DNA of 64,000 nt. It comes from Candidatus Saccharimonadales bacterium. Its GTDB lineage: Bacteria; Patescibacteriota; Saccharimonadia; Saccharimonadales; UBA4665. The first letter of the stretch is position 1, and each line of letters starts with the position of its first letter. Both the position numbers and the translations under genes were made by a program. The stretch covers positions 142,350 through 206,349 of the forward strand of contig DATEJI010000108.1 in assembly GCA_035278105.1 (NCBI GenBank). Reading direction: 5' to 3'. Below the pieces are notes generated by a model that worked only from the letters and a program-made list of their open reading frames with translations, did no database searches and was not told the origin of the DNA. This document shows, in pieces, positions 5,062 to 12,259 of the stretch.

Positions 5062-6321
5062 TTATGCTTCATTGTAAACTGCTTCTTCGGCGAGCGCCAG
5101 CGGTTGTTCGAGTTCGGCGGAAAGTTGGCGATGCACTGCCGCCTCAAGGTTTTCCTGATTCAGATAACGCATCATGAGCTCGTGCCACAAATTGTCGCGA
5201 ACAAAATGCACTACCCGCTCGGCGAATGGCAGATGATTGCAATAGCTAAGGGCAACATCAAGCACGTTGCACGAGACAATCGTGCCGTCATCGTGAATCA
5301 ACCCCAGACATTGCGTGTCTTGCCAAAAAGCCAAGCTGGGCTCAAGCGCAGCAAGCGCTTGTTCACCACCGTACCAGGCCAAATCTTCCAACTGGACGTG
5401 CGGCTCAAAGATTTCAGGGTGATAGGCATCAGCAAACCGAGAATAATAGCGCTGGATCATCCGCCACGGTACCGGCTGCCCAGCCAGTTGCGCGGTGGTG
5501 TACGGTTCGCTCACCGAACTTTCTTGCATGATACTGCCGAAGTCTGGCTTGACCTGCTGCAGTTTCGCGTAGCTGCTGTGAGCGCGAATGCCGTTCATTT
5601 CTTCGAGCATCAACAGCAAGGTGGTGATAGCCAGGCCGTCGAAATCGTGCTCGATCGGCAGCGCCACTAAAGCGCCAAGCTCTGGGAACGATAGCAAATT
5701 GTGCTTAGCTTGCTCCACAACCTGCCGAGACAGAGTATGCCAGCGCTTGGTTTTGGGTGCGACAAGGGCAATAGCGCGCGTTTCGAAATCGCTCGGCGTT
5801 AGTTTGGCGTACTGTTCACGGAACGACTTCTGCCAAGCCACCGGTTCAGTAATCATGGCCGCGGCGTACAACGCGGCAACCGGCTCGTGCTTGAGCATAC
5901 TATCAGCAGAGCGGTACCCAAGCTGTTTCATGGCGATCTTCGGCAGTTTCTTCTTTAGCAAGCGCTTGGCTACGCTGGTTTTGAGGGCAAAGCACTGCTT
6001 GGGCATGTCGTGCTTGGTAAGGAATTTTTGGACACTTTGGATGACGTCTTCGCCGGTTGCGCCGCTGGTAATTCCAAGCGCCCGGCGCACATTGGCTTCA
6101 TCTTGCTTGAGCCGTTCGTGTAGCGCGCTATACAATTCTGGGCCGGTTGTATCGTTTGGATCCAACCCAAGCGCCGAAATTTTGGCGCGCATGCGCTGTG
6201 TAACCTCGGTGGTCAGATGAATGTCGGCGTTTGGTCGGCCGGCGGCGTGCTCGAGCGCCGAGATACTCTGACTAAACGTAGGTTCCCTCGCCCCGAGTGC
6301 CTGTGACAGAAATCGTGTCAT
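5062..6321 (-). CDS. Hypothetical protein
   Basis: Long ORF with host-like composition; start placed at MTRFLSQ (alternative 6351). Confidence 0.7.
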   Translation of the reverse strand: MTRFLSQALGAREPTFSQSISALEHAAGRPNADIHLTTEVTQRMRAKISALGLDPNDTTGPELYSALHERLKQDEANVRRALGITSGATGEDVIQSVQKFLTKHDMPKQCFALKTSVAKRLLKKKLPKIAMKQLGYRSADSMLKHEPVAALYAAAMITEPVAWQKSFREQYAKLTPSDFETRAIALVAPKTKRWHTLSRQVVEQAKHNLLSFPELGALVALPIEHDFDGLAITTLLLMLEEMNGIRAHSSYAKLQQVKPDFGSIMQESSVSEPYTTAQLAGQPVPWRMIQRYYSRFADAYHPEIFEPHVQLEDLAWYGGEQALAALEPSLAFWQDTQCLGLIHDDGTIVSCNVLDVALSYCNHLPFAERVVHFVRDNLWHELMMRYLNQENLEAAVHRQLSAELEQPLALAEEAVYNEA

Positions 6322-6431
6322 ATCTACCCACCAGATTACCACAAGCGCCATGCCAAAAACCAGCCATTCTAAAACCTAGCAAGCTATTTGCGCACCTTGC
6401 GGAAGTAAGAAAAAATTGATATCGTCACACG

Positions 6432-7232
6432 ATGAACGTTCACTGTAGTGAGGCAGTCGAGCGCAGAAAAGCGTTCGATCGGTTCGTGGAAATTACCAAC
6501 GACGCCTTGCAGCATCCCGAGGTCGTATCACGTCTGGGCGGTATGGCTGCCGAGTTAAGCGCTGTTGCCCAGCAATTTTTTCTGCCCAACGTCTACCATG
6601 GCCAGGCGAGCGTGCCGTTTTCGCTACGAGGTCAAGCCGATAAAGTGGCGCTGCTGCCACTCAACGCGCAAGAAGTCGATCGCGCTTTCGAGGTAGTTGA
6701 CCCGCTTCTGGGCGTGTGGGCAGATCGCATGCCTGTGCCGGAAACACTCTATTCCGAAGCCTACGGTCGAGAGGTAGATCCGCGCGTCGAGTTGGCCGCA
6801 CTCCGACCGTCGTCAAGCGACGATGATGGCGGTGATTTGTCTGAATACAATGCCGCCACCATCACCGGCACCGATATGAACGGTGGTTTTATGTTTAAAC
6901 GATCAGCGCCGGTGATTGTTATCTCCAACAATTTTGCCCAGCCCGGCCAAGAGCTAGCAGCCGCATCAACCACGGTTCACGAAACAACACATGCCTGGTA
7001 TGTCTTCAGAAACTGCCCGCTTATTGATACGCCGCCAAGCATAGCCAGCTCCGAACTCTACGCCTACGAAAATGATGGTGTAGTGCTGGAAAGCTTGGGC
7101 GATCCTGACGATTTAGCGGACACTGTTTTCCGCACCGTGCGAGAGCTCCAGCAGCAGCATGGGTTGCCGAAAGCACCGCATACAGCTACGCCTGATTTGA
7201 TCCGCGCCTTCGAAGCATATGGCATTATGTAA
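6432..7232 (+). CDS. Orphan HExxH metalloprotease-like protein (family A, copy 1)
   Basis: VHETTH followed by ELYAY; TATCGT -10 hexamer 6 nt before ATG; aligns by eye with 7327-8154 and 22187-23065. Confidence 0.7.
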   Translation: MNVHCSEAVERRKAFDRFVEITNDALQHPEVVSRLGGMAAELSAVAQQFFLPNVYHGQASVPFSLRGQADKVALLPLNAQEVDRAFEVVDPLLGVWADRMPVPETLYSEAYGREVDPRVELAALRPSSSDDDGGDLSEYNAATITGTDMNGGFMFKRSAPVIVISNNFAQPGQELAAASTTVHETTHAWYVFRNCPLIDTPPSIASSELYAYENDGVVLESLGDPDDLADTVFRTVRELQQQHGLPKAPHTATPDLIRAFEAYGIM

Positions 7233-7326
7233 AGTTACGCGCTCTTTAGATATCGTACGAACAACACACTGTACACCGCAGCCATATCAACTTGCTTTTT
7301 ACTGTTCGGTATTGTTTCATAGTTAG

Positions 7327-8154
7327 ATGCATCTACAGGTTGGACGTGAACACGAGCGGGTGGTTGCCTTTGATCGGATGATCGGGGCTATTGATGGCGT
7401 ACTGCGTAATCCAGAGATAATCGCCGCCCTTGGTAGCACGGCAAAGCCGCTCCAAGGAATGATGGACCAGCTCTATCTGCCCGACATGAGCGACGCCGGG
7501 CCAAACATACCAGCCTCGCTGCGGGATACGAACGAATCTATTGCCTTCATACCAATAGATGACGCCGAGATCAATCGAGCACAAGAGTTCGCAGACCAGC
7601 TCTTCGCCCAAACCATGGGCGAAGCCGTACAACTGCCGCTCGTCGTACCCTCGGTTGCCTATGGCTACTCCATCAACACTGGGAGCGGCCTGGCACTGGC
7701 GATCAAGTGGGAGGCGATGCTGCGCGAGCGCGATACCAAGCTCGGCGGACCGCTTCAATTTGCGCGAGCCTCAGTCGATGCGGGCTTTATTGCAGATGCA
7801 GAAAGGTTAACCTACCGCCAATCGGCGCCGGTGATTATTATGCGAGAAAGCCTCATGCAAAATGGCGATCTCACGCAAGTGGCCTCAACAGGTGTTCATG
7901 AGCTTACCCACGTGGATGACCTGCGCGCGAACGGATTTCTGTTCTACACTCCGTACGGCGCGGCCAGCACGGAAGTCCACGCGTACGAAGCCGGTGGTGT
8001 GGTGTTGGAAGCAATCGGCGATCCTTATCATCTTTCCGACAGCAATCACCAAGACGTACGTGCGGTCCGCGAGCGATATGGCGACCCGGCGTCGCCCTAC
8101 ACCATCACCGGCGAAGAAATGTTCGATTCGCTGTGGAACCTTCAGATTTTCTAG
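7327..8154 (+). CDS. Orphan HExxH metalloprotease-like protein (family A, copy 2)
   Basis: VHELTH...EVHAYE; shares RQSAPVII/GVVLEAIGDP blocks with copy 1. Confidence 0.7.
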   Translation: MHLQVGREHERVVAFDRMIGAIDGVLRNPEIIAALGSTAKPLQGMMDQLYLPDMSDAGPNIPASLRDTNESIAFIPIDDAEINRAQEFADQLFAQTMGEAVQLPLVVPSVAYGYSINTGSGLALAIKWEAMLRERDTKLGGPLQFARASVDAGFIADAERLTYRQSAPVIIMRESLMQNGDLTQVASTGVHELTHVDDLRANGFLFYTPYGAASTEVHAYEAGGVVLEAIGDPYHLSDSNHQDVRAVRERYGDPASPYTITGEEMFDSLWNLQIF

Positions 8155-8203
8155 GTGACCGCGGAAGCAGAGCGGCCAGACTACACAACCAAACGAGCGC
8201 GCG

Positions 8204-9208
8204 CTACAACGGCGTTGGCTTGTAGTGCGCAGGCGCTTTGTGGAGATACGCCAGCAACTCTTTTTCGCTCAGCAAGCCGGCTTGGGCGCCGACCTTTTGG
8301 CAAACGCTCATGGAGTTAATCGGCGCCCAACGCAGCGCATCCTCCAAACTCAGGCCCTTCATGGCCGCGGCGACAAAGGTAGAGGCAAAGGCGTCGCCGG
8401 CGCCAGTGCGGTCGTACGGCGGTTTCGGGTCTGGATAGAGTGGCATTTTCAGTCGCTTGGTGCCGTCCGAGGCATATGCGCCAGCCGGGCCATCAGTAAT
8501 CACGACCACCTGCGGACCAAGCGCGTGCAAGTGATCGAACAGATCGTTAATATCGGCATGATTACCGCCGCCCACCGTTACCGCCTCTTCTCGATTCAAC
8601 ACAAGCACGGATGAGCGCTTGTACAGTCGCGCCAAGCGCTTCGCGCCAGCTTCCATCTGGAACGTGCCGGGCTGAAAGGCCAAACGCACACTGGGATTTT
8701 CCTCAAGCCAGTCCGCAACATCGTCGTGATACGGCAGCGCATGCTTGCTGATGGAGCTAAAGTACACCCAGCGCGGCACTTCCTTCGGCCGGAGATGCGG
8801 CCAATGATAATCGTACTCCTCGTGCTTAATAAGAATGGTGCGCTCGGCTTTATACCAAAGCACATAGTGGTAATTGCTTTTTTTACTGGGATGGATACGT
8901 ACAAACCGTGTGTCAACGCCGTTTTTGCCCAGCGACATAATCATATCGCGGCCTTCTTGATCGCCGCCAACGTTGGTCGCAAAGCTTGTCTTGAGCCCGA
9001 GCCGCGCAAACGCCACGGCACCATTCGCCGCGTTACCCACGCCTTGCACAACCTCGGCAAAATCGAACGGAATCTTGGTGCCGAATGGCACAGAAAGCCA
9101 CTTTTCGCCGCGCGCATCGGTGACTACTTTTTCTTCGTCGTCGAACAGCCGGATGAATGCGTCGGTCACAACGTCGCCGATACTCAAAACGTCAAACTGG
9201 TGCTGCAT
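8204..9208 (-). CDS. PfkB-family carbohydrate kinase
   Basis: GNAANGAVAFARLG and DRTGAGDAF PfkB signatures. Confidence 0.92.
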   Translation of the reverse strand: MQHQFDVLSIGDVVTDAFIRLFDDEEKVVTDARGEKWLSVPFGTKIPFDFAEVVQGVGNAANGAVAFARLGLKTSFATNVGGDQEGRDMIMSLGKNGVDTRFVRIHPSKKSNYHYVLWYKAERTILIKHEEYDYHWPHLRPKEVPRWVYFSSISKHALPYHDDVADWLEENPSVRLAFQPGTFQMEAGAKRLARLYKRSSVLVLNREEAVTVGGGNHADINDLFDHLHALGPQVVVITDGPAGAYASDGTKRLKMPLYPDPKPPYDRTGAGDAFASTFVAAAMKGLSLEDALRWAPINSMSVCQKVGAQAGLLSEKELLAYLHKAPAHYKPTPL

Positions 9209-9313
9209 GCCCCCTCTTTCGAACTGTTATATCGCTAACGTTTATTGTGCCACAGCGCGCGCCCAAAAAGCAAGACGATAGACAACCAGCGTGCTCTATG
9301 GTACAACCGTGCT

Positions 9314-9943
9314 ATGCGTGAAATCCGTGGACTAGGTCATGACGAGCTACAGCAGCTCGTACAAAGCGACGTTTTCTTGAGCCGCGTTAGTGTTGTCGGC
9401 ATGCAGCTCGCGGCCAACAATTTGGAAGGCGGCTTTGCGCTTAGCCGGGCTGGTGATGCTATCTGCTACTCGCCCATGCTGATACCCGAATCATTTGCAG
9501 AAAATGGCGACCTCGATCCAGCAAAAGCGCTGTATGTAAATGACATTACCTTGCGGGCAAATCAAGGATACAATCCTGCGATACTCGCTACGCTGCATGG
9601 CCATCCTACAGAATCCGACGGGGCGTACGATTTGGCCGCCGCACTGCCTTCGTACGGCGACATATGTCGCCTAGCGCAGGTTGAATATCCCGCGAACCCT
9701 GCGCACATCGGCATGGTGGCACACGTTGAACAGGCGCCTGCGCCACACGTGCAGATTCAATGCTTTCGAGCGGGAAATAACTTTACGCCCGACGAACTGC
9801 TTGCCAAACCACTAGATAGCATGTTCTTCCATGATTACCACGCCACACTAGAGGCACACGGTGTGCGAACAGCATCACTGCGCATCATGTCGGATGGCAG
9901 AATTTTCGGTCTCCACAACCTCGAACATCTCTATGAAGACTAA
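9314..9943 (+). CDS. JAB/MPN+-like metalloenzyme (family B, copy 1)
   Basis: LEGG...LHGHP...LPSYGD matches the E-HxH-SxxD layout; start at MREIRG preceded by TACAAC-N6. Confidence 0.65.
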   Translation: MREIRGLGHDELQQLVQSDVFLSRVSVVGMQLAANNLEGGFALSRAGDAICYSPMLIPESFAENGDLDPAKALYVNDITLRANQGYNPAILATLHGHPTESDGAYDLAAALPSYGDICRLAQVEYPANPAHIGMVAHVEQAPAPHVQIQCFRAGNNFTPDELLAKPLDSMFFHDYHATLEAHGVRTASLRIMSDGRIFGLHNLEHLYED

Positions 9944-9966
9944 TCAACGCACGCTACAATACGTAT

Positions 9967-10425
9967 ATGCTTTTACGGACCGCGCTTGGTAAGGCGTATC
10001 GCGGACTGATTGCCAACCGTCACCGGCAGATTCCGTTTTGGGTGTTGGTTGGTTTTTTGCCGACGTTTCTGGCTGCGCGGCTGATTGTCGATAACGCGCC
10101 CGGCGTGTTTTTGCAGGTGAACGGCACGCATGTGCATCATTTTACGTACGGCATCATCATGTTGGCTATTACGGGATTTGTGTCACTGGTGTGGCCATGG
10201 CGGTCGCGAGCGGTTTTGGCGGTCGCTTATGGTATCGGCCTGGCGCTGGCCTTTGACGAGTTCGGCATGTGGCTACATCTGACAAACAACTACAACATCG
10301 ACCAGTCCGAAGACGCCATGGTGGCGATTTTAGCAGTGCTGGTATTTTTAGTGTATGGCCTCGATCTGACTCGTCGCGTGCTGCACAGCGTCTACCCCAA
10401 AAAACCGACCAAGAAAACGCCTTAG
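9967..10425 (+). CDS. Integral membrane protein (about 4 TM)
   Basis: Four hydrophobic segments, HVHHFTYG and FDEFGMW motifs; TACAAT-N6-ATG. Confidence 0.75.
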   Translation: MLLRTALGKAYRGLIANRHRQIPFWVLVGFLPTFLAARLIVDNAPGVFLQVNGTHVHHFTYGIIMLAITGFVSLVWPWRSRAVLAVAYGIGLALAFDEFGMWLHLTNNYNIDQSEDAMVAILAVLVFLVYGLDLTRRVLHSVYPKKPTKKTP

Positions 10426-10431
10426 TAAGCC

Positions 10432-11103
10432 ATGCCTCGCTTTTCGCTGTCCCGTGCTGAACTGACCCGAACAATGAGCAACCCAAGCTTTGCAGAAGAC
10501 CTGGCAAAAATATATGAACACACTGTCGGTACCGGCTGCGAGGGTGCAGTGTGGCTTAACAAATCATCCCAAGGGATAGAATACTCCGATCTTTATCTAC
10601 CGACCTCGGCACGCGAAAACTATGGAGCCGACCCGCGAAGCGAACTGCGTATACACGCCGCCGACACCATAGCAGCGTTCCTTCATTCACATCCTGGCAT
10701 GACAGACATCACGTCAGGAACGCCGACAGATATCCATCAATATCCTTCTCTTGAAGATCTGGAGATGTTTGCGAAATGCGACGCAGTAGGCCAAGATCCA
10801 GGGTTCATAGGTGGCGTCGTAAGCCGCGACCCCTGCAAGCTGGGAGCCGGGCGACTACTCTTGCTTCGGACCGACCCGACTACCTTTAGGCCTGATGTGC
10901 TCGAAGGGTGCTCGTACGAAAAATATCACCGTATTTTAAGAAGGGAGGCTGTGGTTCCCTTCCTTAAGGAGTGTGGTTTTGCCACTGCAGAATTCGGCCT
11001 CTCACCTGGCGATACGCAGTTCAATTGGGAGCCGCTCTTATATCCATCTGACATCCACCTTACGGTCGAAGAAGCAGTCGCCAAGCTTTACCCTAACGAA
11101 TAA
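10432..11103 (+). CDS. JAB/MPN+-like metalloenzyme (family B, copy 2)
   Basis: CEGA...LHSHP...YPSLED matches the E-HxH-SxxD layout. Confidence 0.65.
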   Translation: MPRFSLSRAELTRTMSNPSFAEDLAKIYEHTVGTGCEGAVWLNKSSQGIEYSDLYLPTSARENYGADPRSELRIHAADTIAAFLHSHPGMTDITSGTPTDIHQYPSLEDLEMFAKCDAVGQDPGFIGGVVSRDPCKLGAGRLLLLRTDPTTFRPDVLEGCSYEKYHRILRREAVVPFLKECGFATAEFGLSPGDTQFNWEPLLYPSDIHLTVEEAVAKLYPNE

Positions 11104-12147
11104 TTAGAGGTCTTGCGCGTGGGATGCTTCGGTGTCGTCGACGCTTGATTCGTCGAGCTCGCCTTTACTGGCAGCGCTAGCTAACTCCAGTTGCTTGTGG
11201 AATAATCCTTGGATCGCCTGTTTGTTATGCCGATCTTTAGCCCATGTGTGCAACACCGGATCTTGCAGAGCACGAGAATAGCTAAAGGTCAATCCCCACG
11301 GATGTGGCCCGAGTTTGGCCAAACGATTCAGGTTCAAAAATGCTTGCTTGGACGTTTCGCCGCCGCTTAAGAACACCACGCCGCCAAGTTCCGCTGGTAC
11401 GTGCTCGTGCAGTACGCGGGCGGTGCGAGCGGCGACATCGTCGTGATCCATCACCACACCGCTATCTTTGCCAGCCATCACAAAACTGCTCTTTAAAATG
11501 GCGCCGGGCAAATGCACGCGGAACGCGCGCAGTGTCTGAAACAGAATGTCGTAGGTGTGCGCCATGATCTGCTCGCACTGCTCAATACTATGCGTACCAT
11601 CGAACAGGACCTCCGGCTCGACAATCGGCACGATGCCAGCCTCCTGGCAAATCCGAGCGTATCGCGCCAACACAAAGGTGTTCGCGCCAATGCATTCATC
11701 GCTGGGAATGCCATCGCCAATGGTAATAACCGCGCGCCATTTGGCAAACGCTGCATCCGCGCCACGATACGTCGCCATGCGCTCGGGCAAGCCATCAAGC
11801 CCTTGGGTAACTTTTTCGTCTGGGAAACCGGGCAAGTCTACCAAGCCCTTGTCCACTTTGATACCCGGCAATACGTCGTGGTTCTTCATGTATTCTCGGA
11901 AAACTTGGCCGTGCTCGGTGGCTTGCCAGAATGTTTCATCGTATAAAATCACGCCGCTTAAAAACGCTTCAGCGCCTGGCGTGGTAAAGAGTAGTCCGCG
12001 ATATTCGCGCCGCGTTTCTTCGGTGCAAGGCACGCCCACGGCCTCGAAACGCTTTTGGCAGCTCGCGTTGCTTTCGTCGGCAGCCAACAGCCCTTTGCCT
12101 CGTGCTACCATGCGCTTTGCAATGCGCTCAAGTTCCTCGGTATTCAT
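11104..12147 (-). CDS. fba: Fructose-bisphosphate aldolase class I
   Basis: GKGLLAADES, PGIKVDKG, FAKWRAV, VPIVEPEV, FLSGGE, TFSYSRALQ; start at MNTEE after a GGGGG RBS. Confidence 0.95.
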   Translation of the reverse strand: MNTEELERIAKRMVARGKGLLAADESNASCQKRFEAVGVPCTEETRREYRGLLFTTPGAEAFLSGVILYDETFWQATEHGQVFREYMKNHDVLPGIKVDKGLVDLPGFPDEKVTQGLDGLPERMATYRGADAAFAKWRAVITIGDGIPSDECIGANTFVLARYARICQEAGIVPIVEPEVLFDGTHSIEQCEQIMAHTYDILFQTLRAFRVHLPGAILKSSFVMAGKDSGVVMDHDDVAARTARVLHEHVPAELGGVVFLSGGETSKQAFLNLNRLAKLGPHPWGLTFSYSRALQDPVLHTWAKDRHNKQAIQGLFHKQLELASAASKGELDESSVDDTEASHAQDL

Positions 12148-12259
12148 ATCGCCCCCTGTTCGTTTATCCCTATTGTAAGAGCTTGTGCTTACAATGGCAA
12201 CGCACGGCCCCAAATTCGTTTCGATATTGCGATTGCGCGAAAATAATTGCGGCGGCCGG

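What the first reader, a model, noticed from the sequence alone, without database searches (positions are those of the whole stretch)
9314..11103. Two divergent JAB/MPN+-like paralogs flanking a membrane-protein gene, with no ubiquitin-like partners
Seen: E...H(G/S)HP...PSxxD in both, with an unusually long HxH-to-SxxD spacer (over 13 residues against the canonical 7). Established: prokaryotic JABs usually accompany E1/E2/Ubl, CBASS, sulfur-carrier or RadC contexts; none is present in this window. Inference: orphan isopeptidase- or deaminase-like enzymes whose substrate lies elsewhere, possibly in the host or a phage. The three genes are co-oriented and interrupt the pfkB-fba carbon cluster.
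Basis: partly seen in the sequence, partly recalled or inferred. Interest (0 to 1): 0.65.

Follow-up and report, generated by a model that had tools for sequence, protein, structure and literature searches.

The report
New orphan JAB/MPN+ hydrolase family
Two fast-evolving genes in a Saccharibacteria genome encode an undescribed branch of the zinc "JAB/MPN+" enzymes that normally remove ubiquitin-like tags, but this genome has no such tags, so their target is unknown.

Summary
Genes A (9314-9943) and C (10432-11103) are distant paralogs. Both keep Glu, His-x-His-Pro and Pro-Ser-x-x-Asp, and they flank a membrane-protein gene (9967-10425).

About 60 homolog clusters exist among 1.84 billion representative proteins. 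In these, His/His/Asp are invariant and Glu/Ser are kept in 58 of 59. The HxH-to-Ser spacer is 15 residues in A and 18 in C (family range 9-39). It is 7 in all 20 RadC and Prok-JAB controls.

No Pfam, NCBIfam, PHROG or PADLOC model matches. Four weaker lines of evidence all point to JAB/MPN:
- PDB profile hits are only JAMM enzymes.
- hhalign against RadC gives P=6e-5, with clean controls.
- AlphaFold models have pLDDT 81-83.
- The 22 best Foldseek matches for A are all MPN proteins, though TM-scores are only 0.3-0.37. The match for C is weak.

The genome (95% complete) has no ThiF-type E1, ThiS/MoaD, ubiquitin, Prok_Ub or Pup.

The genes sit in a variable slot between fba and pfkB. In congeners this slot is empty, holds 1-3 copies, or holds unrelated cargo. 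Slot copies are 22-39% identical, while flanking genes are 68-92% identical.

Verdict: a new, accessory JAB-superfamily clade with unknown substrate. Another agent in this scan reported an undescribed Saccharibacteria JAMM family on other DNA; I could not tell whether it is the same one.

The parts
8204..9208 (-). Flank: PfkB-family sugar kinase, one conserved border of the variable slot
   Evidence: Pfam PF00294, E=4e-35. It is 72-84% identical in congeners.
9209..9313 (.). 105-bp divergent intergenic region between pfkB and gene A. It presumably holds both promoters.
   Evidence: Coordinates, sequence. The consensus scan found no sigma-70-like site here, so the promoters are inferred only.
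9314..9943 (+). JAB/MPN+-like gene A (209 aa). Catalytic codons: E38 at 9425-9427, H95 at 9596-9598, H97 at 9602-9604, S113 at 9650-9652, D116 at 9659-9661. The 15-residue variable loop runs from P98 to P112.
   Evidence: motif. (AF2 model, pLDDT 81.4, pTM 0.82). (Foldseek: the top 22 matches are all MPN proteins). (hhalign against RadC, P=6e-5).
9967..10425 (+). Gene B: 152-aa membrane protein with 3-4 TM segments and no recognised family. It lies between the two paralogs only in this genome.
   Evidence: Homologs of 45-54% identity occur in three other Saccharimonadales families, not beside JAB-like genes within the +/-1.5 kb fetched.
10432..11103 (+). JAB/MPN+-like gene C (223 aa). Catalytic codons: E37 at 10540-10542, H85 at 10684-10686, H87 at 10690-10692, S106 at 10747-10749, D109 at 10756-10758. 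It has an 18-residue variable loop.
   Evidence: motif. (AF2 model, pLDDT 82.6, pTM 0.83). (Foldseek is weak: Rpn11 at E=0.03). The start at 10432 rather than M15 is supported by the conserved N-terminal helix.
11104..12213 (-). Flank: class-I fructose-bisphosphate aldolase, the other conserved border of the slot. Its stop codon abuts the stop codon of gene C.
   Evidence: Pfam PF00274, E=5e-113. It is 71-76% identical in congeners.

Best explanation
A and C belong to an undescribed clade of the JAB/MPN+ (JAMM) superfamily. The clade is restricted to Saccharimonadales, with one distant branch elsewhere in Patescibacteria.

Each is a soluble protein of about 210 aa with the complete JAMM site. 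By analogy with AfJAMM and AMSH-LP, His95, His97 and Asp116 would bind Zn2+, Glu38 would activate the water, and Ser113 at a helix N-cap would stabilise the intermediate. Both are therefore most likely active zinc hydrolases.

A loop of variable length (9-39 residues, against a fixed 7 in RadC and Prok-JAB) is inserted directly between the metal ligands. I infer that it works as a substrate-selecting lid.

The genes are accessory and not part of carbon metabolism. They sit antisense in a variable slot between fba and pfkB, vary from 0 to 3 copies among congeners, diverge about ten times faster than their neighbours while still under purifying selection, and sometimes lose catalytic residues. 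They work without any genome-encoded ubiquitin-like protein or E1.

Shown here: the motif and its conservation, superfamily-level similarity, absence of partners, the slot structure and the evolutionary rate.

Inferred: metal binding, catalysis, the loop's role, and a role in biological conflict or host interaction.

My split for the chemistry, given the JAB fold: peptide or isopeptide bond cleavage of a non-Ubl or foreign substrate about 45%; nucleic-acid or other hydrolysis, as proposed for RadC and Tox-JAB, about 30%; non-catalytic about 10%; other about 15%.
For: Motif conservation:
- H/H/D are invariant and E and S are kept in 58 of 59 homologs.

Superfamily assignment:
- With the 59-sequence profile, every PDB hit at E<=10 is a JAMM protein (AMSH-LP x3, 2kcq, AfJAMM x2), aligned on HxHP...S..D. 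BRCC36 and AMSH-LP also appear with the 7-sequence profile.
- hhalign of the family against 19 Patescibacteria RadC JAB domains gives score 32.6, P=6.1e-5, probability 65%. All 25 controls (reversed, shuffled or unrelated) give P>=0.05.
- AF2 models: pLDDT 81.4 with pTM 0.82, and pLDDT 82.6 with pTM 0.83. The secondary-structure order is that of JAMM: helix, Glu at the start of a beta hairpin, a strand ending in HxH, a loop, S-x-x-D at a helix N-terminus, then a beta hairpin.
- Foldseek for A: ranks 1-22 are all MPN proteins (BRCC36 at E=1.9e-4, Rpn11, CSN5, BubCD, eIF3h, Prp8). Phage JAB proteins appear among the BFVD matches.

Real genes:
- dN/dS is 0.19-0.20 in two pairs.

Orphan status:
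- No ThiF over the cut-off, and no ThiS/MoaD, ubiquitin, Pup or Prok_Ub in the genome.
- No recurrent neighbour across loci.

Accessory slot:
- The family sits between fba and pfkB in 7 congeners. The site is empty in 3 and holds unrelated cargo in 2.
- It is present in 11 of 23 genomes of the genus, 1 of 120 in the family-level sample, and 10 of 400 in the order.
- Slot copies are 22-39% identical against 68-92% for flanking genes. Terminal branches have a median of 1.27 substitutions per site.
Against: - No curated model reaches threshold. Pfam, NCBIfam, PHROGs and PADLOC are all negative for A and C. Only 2 of 59 relatives touch Prok-JAB (E=0.065) and 2 of 59 touch DUF4329 (E=0.007).
- Each sequence-level link to JAB is individually non-significant or local. 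It rests largely on the same motif of about 40 residues.
- Foldseek TM-scores are low (0.29-0.37, rmsd 6-13 A). For C, the only MPN hit with any weight has E=0.03.
- The AF2 models rest on 7 sequences. I could not inspect coordinates, so clustering of the five residues in 3D is unverified.
- The canonical HxH-x7-S spacing is not met.
- Several congeners have lost Glu or Ser, so catalysis may not be essential to the family's role.
- Nothing indicates the substrate. No expression data could be obtained.
Confidence: 0.6

Rival explanations
1. The fold is JAB, but the enzymes are not peptidases. Like RadC and the Tox-JAB toxin domains, they would act on nucleic acid or another non-protein substrate, for example against invading DNA.
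For: - The best profile-profile link is to RadC.
- The H[ST]H signature and the weak DUF4329 hits recall Tox-JAB-2. Zhang et al. 2012 (PMC3482391) propose that Tox-JAB-2 and RadC are nucleases, because they lack the residues lining the Ubl-tail tunnel and occur in genomes without Ubl systems, as here.
- Foldseek BFVD matches include a Xanthomonas phage Xop411 protein and giant-virus proteins. These are relatives of the virus groups in which that paper reports Tox-JAB-2.
Against: - Nuclease activity of RadC and Tox-JAB is itself only a prediction.
- The DUF4329 model does not hit A or C in the genome.
- No DNA-binding domain or DNA-related neighbour is seen.
- In single-copy congeners the gene stands alone, with no room for an immunity gene. 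A self-toxic nuclease is therefore unlikely.
Confidence: 0.2
2. The proteins act mainly as non-catalytic binding or scaffold proteins, that is, as MPN pseudo-enzymes or as partners in MPN+/MPN- type heterodimers. The paired genes in this window would encode such a dimer, possibly docked to membrane protein B.
For: - Five of 15 copies examined (14 from the genus, one from a neighbouring genus) have lost Glu, Ser or the whole HxH.
- G009 carries one intact copy and two degenerate copies in tandem. This recalls the Rpn11/Rpn8, CSN5/CSN6 and BRCC36/Abraxas pairs (established knowledge).
- Tandem copies recur in the family.
Against: - In this window both copies keep all five catalytic residues.
- 58 of 59 family representatives keep the full set, which implies selection on catalysis.
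- Most genomes have a single copy.
Confidence: 0.1
3. The motif sits on a fold that is not MPN, so the resemblance to JAMM is convergent. It would be a different metal-binding family.
For: - No curated JAB model hits.
- The spacing is non-canonical.
- TM-scores are below 0.4, and C's model matches MPN only weakly.
- Both models also match archaeal-virus proteins said to have a novel fold (ATV ORF273 and an ARV2 protein) at equal or higher TM-scores.
Against: - Four independent methods all rank JAB/MPN proteins first. The controls are clean.
- The order of secondary-structure elements around each catalytic residue is that of JAMM.
Confidence: 0.1
4. The genes are metabolic helpers tied to their neighbours, for example a metal hydrolase acting on a sugar-phosphate or nucleotide, which would explain the recurrent fba/pfkB position.
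For: - The position between fba and pfkB is the same in 7 congeners.
- The promoter region is shared divergently with pfkB.
- The JAB fold is related to the cytidine deaminase fold, and deaminases appear far down the Foldseek lists.
Against: - The slot is empty or holds unrelated genes in 5 congeners.
- Four congeners carry the gene elsewhere, and order-level homologs sit in other contexts.
- The divergence is extreme compared with the metabolic neighbours.
Confidence: 0.05

Closest known systems
JAMM/MPN+ metalloisopeptidases (AfJAMM, AMSH-LP, BRCC36, Rpn11, CSN5)
   Same: The E...HxH...SxxD motif is the same, and so is the placement of each residue on the secondary-structure elements. These proteins give the best PDB sequence-profile and Foldseek matches.
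   Different: - The HxH-to-Ser spacer is 15 and 18 residues (family range 9-39) instead of 7.
- There is an extra N-terminal helix pair and a C-terminal extension of about 60 aa.
- There is no Ubl, E1 or E2 in the genome.
- No Pfam JAB model matches.
- TM-scores are only 0.3-0.37.
RadC (PF04002) JAB domains
   Same: This is the best profile-profile match, over HxHP...PSxxD...GxIxGI (P=6e-5). RadC is likewise a stand-alone prokaryotic JAB without a Ubl partner.
   Different: - RadC has a strict 7-residue spacer and the HNHPSG signature.
- The genome already has two true RadC genes.
- The RadC model does not hit A or C.
Tox-JAB-2 / DUF4329 (Zhang et al. 2012, PMC3482391)
   Same: - The E, H[ST]H, S, D signature is shared.
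- Tox-JAB-2 also occurs in genomes lacking Ubl systems.
- Two of 59 relatives touch the DUF4329 model.
- Some viral structural neighbours overlap with the virus groups reported for Tox-JAB-2.
   Different: - Tox-JAB-2 is a C-terminal toxin module of RHS, T6SS or T7SS proteins, or is secreted, and has an adjacent immunity gene.
- Here the proteins are stand-alone, have no signal peptide or TM segment, and are often solitary, with no room for an immunity gene.
- The DUF4329 model misses A and C.
Ubl-coupled bacterial JAB enzymes (CBASS Cap3, Bil/Bub DUBs, Mec+/CysO, QbsD)
   Same: These share the JAB catalytic domain. Citrobacter BubCD is among the Foldseek matches (rank 15).
   Different: Those enzymes are always encoded with an E1/E2 or a sulfur-carrier Ubl. 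None is present in the window, in the genome or beside any homolog.

Membership tests
JAB/MPN+ (JAMM) superfamily | Catalytic residues Glu ... His-x-His ... Ser-x-x-Asp, conserved in relatives | tested here: met
   Both A and C carry all five. H/H/D are invariant and E and S are kept in 58 of 59 homologs.
JAB/MPN+ (JAMM) superfamily | Canonical spacing HxH-x7-S-x2-D | tested here: not met
   The spacer is 15 in A and 18 in C, with a family range of 9-39 and a median of 15. It is 7 in all 20 RadC and Prok-JAB controls from the same phylum.
JAB/MPN+ (JAMM) superfamily | MPN fold | tested here: inconclusive
   The AF2 models have pLDDT 81-83. For A, Foldseek ranks 1-22 are all MPN proteins, with a best E of 1.9e-4, but TM-scores are only 0.29-0.37. 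For C, the only weighty MPN hit is Rpn11 at E=0.03. The coordinates could not be inspected.
JAB/MPN+ (JAMM) superfamily | Significant match to a curated JAB model (PF01398, PF14464) | tested here: not met
   There is no Pfam hit for A or C at E<=10. Prok-JAB in the six-frame genome search hits only the two RadC genes. Two of 59 relatives reach E=0.065.
JAB/MPN+ (JAMM) superfamily | Profile-level homology to bona fide JAB domains | tested here: met
   hhalign against RadC gives P=6.1e-5, and all 25 controls give P>=0.05. All six PDB profile hits are JAMM proteins. The similarity is local, about 43 columns.
JAB/MPN+ (JAMM) superfamily | Zn2+ binding and hydrolytic activity | not testable with these tools
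   This needs purified protein.
RadC (PF04002) | Match to the RadC model, the HNHPSG...PSxxD signature, and a 7-residue spacer | tested here: not met
   The RadC model finds two other genes in the genome and not A or C. The signature and spacer both differ.
Tox-JAB-2 / DUF4329 | Match to PF14220 | tested here: not met
   There is no hit on A or C. Two of 59 relatives reach E=0.007, below the cut-off.
Tox-JAB-2 / DUF4329 | Toxin architecture: an N-terminal trafficking or RHS region, or a secretion signal, plus an adjacent immunity gene | tested here: not met
   The proteins are stand-alone, about 210 aa, with no hydrophobic segment. In G021, G020, G007 and G005 the gene is solitary between fba and pfkB, with no further ORF.
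Ubl-coupled JAB systems (Cap3, Bil, Bub, Mec+/QbsD) | Neighbouring or genome-encoded E1 (ThiF family) and a Ubl or sulfur carrier | tested here: not met
   There is no ThiF over the cut-off, and no ThiS/MoaD, ubiquitin, Prok_Ub or Pup in the 95%-complete genome. No recurrent neighbour was found.

The most novel reading that the evidence does not exclude
The family is a set of deconjugases aimed at another organism. On this reading, these epibiotic bacteria use fast-evolving JAMM enzymes to strip isopeptide-linked tags that they do not make themselves. The tags could be pupylation or other Ubl-type marks in an actinobacterial host, or Ubl-based anti-phage or anti-symbiont defences. The hypervariable lid loop between the zinc ligands would track the target, and degenerate tandem copies would serve as MPN- partners.
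Probability: 0.07. Interest if true: 0.8.

Novelty: new variant of a known kind. Interest (0 to 1): 0.45.

Why it matters
Saccharibacteria and other Patescibacteria live attached to host bacteria with tiny genomes. Almost nothing is known about their accessory, fast-evolving genes, which are the likeliest mediators of host or phage interaction.

This family adds an unannotated branch to the JAB superfamily. Its variable loop sits in the one place where known members are rigid, and there is no ubiquitin-like system in the genome. It therefore bears on an open question raised for RadC and the Tox-JAB domains: what do JAB domains do when there is no Ubl?

The fba/pfkB slot (empty, 1-3 copies, or other cargo) is also a clean natural marker for finding accessory genes in this genus.

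The value is moderate. The family is small (about 60 clusters), the organism is uncultured, and the function remains unknown.

Tried and rejected
- Word-indexed homolog searches with A, C and a 7-sequence profile found only the query proteins and one metagenomic protein.
A longer union pattern then fetched the four congener loci needed for the AF2 alignments.
- Pfam, NCBIfam, PHROGs and PADLOC gave nothing usable for A, B or C. Pfam also gave nothing for ten order- and phylum-level homologs or for homologs of B.
- Phage links were not found. tblastn against 50,697 phage records found no match at E<=1, and two IMG/VR scans found no relatives. The sensitivity of the IMG/VR scans is limited to close relatives.
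- A link between membrane gene B and the family was rejected. Homologs of B in other genomes have no JAB-like gene within the +/-1.5 kb fetched, and no other JAB-like locus contains a homolog of B.
- A toxin-immunity pair was rejected, because single-copy loci leave no room for a second gene.
- Two giant hits in the representative search (P0006 and P0018) are repetitive adhesin-like proteins without HxH, so they are false positives.
- No mobile-element signature was seen. No flanking direct repeats mark the insertion.
- No GroEL/GroES motifs were found next to any fetched locus, which I checked because of an earlier scan note.
Full report
**What is there.** The window comes from a 1.66-Mb genome that is 95% complete. 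Congener records carry names such as Candidatus Saccharibacteria or Saccharimonadales.

Three + strand ORFs lie between 9314 and 11103:
- A, 9314-9943, 209 aa.
- B, 9967-10425, 152 aa.
- C, 10432-11103, 223 aa.

They are separated by 23 nt and 6 nt. B has 3-4 hydrophobic segments, and A and C have none.

The flanks, both on the minus strand, are a PfkB-family kinase (8204-9208) and a class-I fructose-bisphosphate aldolase (11104-12213). The stop codon of C abuts the stop codon of fba. A is separated from pfkB by a 105-bp divergent spacer.

**The motif and the paralogy.** A carries E38, H95-x-H97-P and P-S113-x-x-D116. C carries E37, H85-x-H87-P and P-S106-x-x-D109. A and C share only 24% identity over 107 residues (E=7e-7). 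Both match the family profile at about 1e-45.

The public gene call for C starts at Met15. The upstream residues align with a conserved N-terminal helix in all relatives, so 10432 is the better start.

**The family.**
- Word-indexed searches found nothing beyond the queries and one metagenomic protein.
- A full HMMER scan of 1.84 billion representatives with a three-sequence profile found 64 proteins at E<=1e-3. Two of these are repetitive false positives.
- The homologs are mostly 200-235 aa long.
- In a 59-sequence alignment, H95, H97 and D116 are invariant. E38 and S113 are kept in 58 of 59, and P98 in 56 of 59.
- The segment between the second His and the Ser is 9-39 residues (median 15). 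It is exactly 7 in all 20 RadC and Prok-JAB domains taken from the same phylum.

**Is it JAB/MPN?** Curated libraries say nothing. Pfam, NCBIfam, PHROGs and PADLOC give no usable match. Only 2 of 59 relatives graze Prok-JAB (E=0.065), and 2 of 59 graze DUF4329 (E=0.007).

Four less direct tests agree with each other:
1. With the 59-sequence profile, the only PDB sequences at E<=10 are six JAMM proteins (AMSH-LP, 2kcq, AfJAMM), aligned on the motif. Each has E of 0.36-1.8.
2. hhalign of the family against 19 RadC JAB domains gives score 32.6, P=6.1e-5, probability 65%, over 43 columns. One reversed, 20 column-shuffled and 4 unrelated alignments all gave P>=0.05.
3. AlphaFold2 models built on only seven sequences reach pLDDT 81.4 with pTM 0.82 for A, and 82.6 with 0.83 for C. 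The order of elements is that of JAMM enzymes: a helix, Glu at the start of a beta hairpin, a strand ending in HxH, a loop, S-x-x-D capping a helix, then a beta hairpin.
4. Foldseek against the PDB ranks only MPN proteins in places 1-22 for A. These include BRCC36 (E=1.9e-4), Rpn11, CSN5, Rpn8, BubCD, eIF3h and Prp8, with Npl4 just below. BFVD matches include phage JAB proteins.

Caveats:
- TM-scores are 0.29-0.37 with large rmsd.
- For C, the only MPN hit with any weight is Rpn11 at E=0.03.
- Most of the sequence signal comes from one stretch of about 40 residues.
- I could not inspect coordinates.

I put membership of the JAB superfamily at about 0.8.

**No partners.** Six-frame searches of the genome found no ThiF-type E1 over the cut-off, and no ThiS/MoaD, ubiquitin, Prok_Ub or Pup. 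The control genomes responded in each search. Because Cap2, Bil, Bub and sulfur-carrier systems all need a ThiF-family adenylating enzyme (established knowledge), this excludes those contexts.

The genome has two ordinary RadC genes elsewhere. Clustering of all ORFs around 25 related loci found no recurrent neighbour apart from local housekeeping synteny.

**The slot and the tempo.** In G021, G020, G009, G016, G007 and G005 the family sits at the same place as here, antisense between fba and pfkB.
- In G014, G002 and G019, fba and pfkB are adjacent, 58-181 bp apart. This is the empty site.
- In G003 and G001 the slot holds unrelated ORFs.
- Copy number is 1 in most genomes, 2 here, and 3 in G009.
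- Four congeners carry a copy elsewhere.

Presence by taxonomic level:

| Sample | Genomes with the family |
|---|---|
| Genus | 11 of 23 |
| Family-level sample | 1 of 120 |
| Order | 10 of 400 |
| Elsewhere in the phylum | one distant sub-family, in 5 of 17 genomes of a single family |

Slot copies are 22-39% identical to each other, while the flanking proteins are 68-92% identical. The tree is star-like, with a median terminal branch of 1.27 substitutions per site. A groups with the G021 copy (support 90/91), and C is unresolved, so A and C are not a recent duplicate pair.

Two closer pairs give dN/dS of 0.19-0.20, so these are real genes under purifying selection.

Five of the 15 copies examined (14 from the genus, one from a neighbouring genus) have lost Glu, Ser or the whole HxH. 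Both copies in this window are intact.

**The membrane gene.** B has homologs of 45-54% identity in three other Saccharimonadales families, and weaker matches inside longer proteins. None has a Pfam family. None lies within 1.5 kb of a JAB-like gene, and no other JAB-like locus examined contains a homolog of B. The A-B-C arrangement is unique to this genome. The tight spacing suggests co-transcription, but this is unproven.

**Mechanism.** I commit to the following: A and C are zinc hydrolases with JAMM chemistry. The length-variable loop between the metal ligands is a substrate-selecting element. The genes are accessory, conflict-type or interaction-type functions and not part of the carbon cluster they interrupt.

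The chemistry is inferred. A peptide or isopeptide substrate is the most likely target.

Zhang et al. 2012 (PMC3482391) argue that RadC and the Tox-JAB clades occur without Ubl systems, lack the Ubl-tail tunnel residues and may be nucleases. That argument applies here too, and it is the main rival.

A self-directed toxin is unlikely, because single-copy loci have no room for an immunity gene. A metabolic role is unlikely, given the empty and alternative slot contents.

**Comparison and novelty.** The closest known relatives are the JAMM isopeptidases, RadC and Tox-JAB-2/DUF4329. This family fails the curated models of all three. It breaks the canonical 7-residue spacing, carries extra N- and C-terminal elements, and has a distinct genomic behaviour. 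I file it as a new variant within the JAB superfamily.

Literature searches for Saccharibacteria with JAMM or JAB domain found nothing relevant.

I found no GroEL/GroES motifs in any locus fetched here. I cannot say whether it is the same family.

**Not done.** The expression check was unavailable. The metagenome-contig scan was not used.

Noticed in passing
window 6432-7232 and 7327-8154 (+): Two tandem orphan HExxH paralogs with no Pfam or PADLOC match fill a second variable slot between pfkB and the 429-aa gene at 5062-6351. That slot is 29 bp in G014 and holds unrelated genes in G003, G019 and G001.
   Followed up: partly
window 10432-10476: The public gene call for C starts at Met15 (10474). 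The family alignment conserves the upstream E-L...P-x-F helix, so the start at 10432 is more likely.
   Followed up: partly
window 9984-9997 / 10417-10430 and 10045-10059 / 10398-10412: Two nested imperfect inverted repeats (14-15 nt, 86-93% complementary) bracket most of membrane gene B. They may be chance.
   Followed up: no
window 11101-11106: The stop codon of gene C and the stop codon of the convergent fba gene are directly adjacent, with 0 nt between them. This leaves no room for separate terminators. G021 has the same geometry with a 12-nt gap.
   Followed up: no
L022 (G009:C78) 6732-8644: Three tandem family copies lie between fba and pfkB. One has an intact site, one has Glu replaced by Asn, and one lacks HxH and SxxD altogether. 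This recalls MPN+/MPN- pairs.
   Followed up: partly
L096-L100 (G772, G685, G701, G798, G810): A distant sub-family of about 238 aa, with the signature HTHPKH...FFSAQD, occurs in 5 of 17 genomes of one other Patescibacteria family. It has its own conserved neighbours, genes of 443 aa and 414 aa.
   Followed up: partly
AF2 models of A and C: Both models also match archaeal-virus proteins (ATV ORF273, PDB 4ats, and an Acidianus rod-shaped virus 2 protein) and ASFV F317L, over nearly full length at TM 0.36-0.47. This is as good as or better than the MPN matches, and it is unexplained.
   Followed up: no
L061 792-1394 (-) in G003; L064 235-777 and 837-1385 (-) in G001: Unrelated ORFs of 180-200 aa with no detected family occupy the same fba/pfkB slot, also antisense. 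The slot appears to be a general accessory-gene hotspot in this genus.
   Followed up: no
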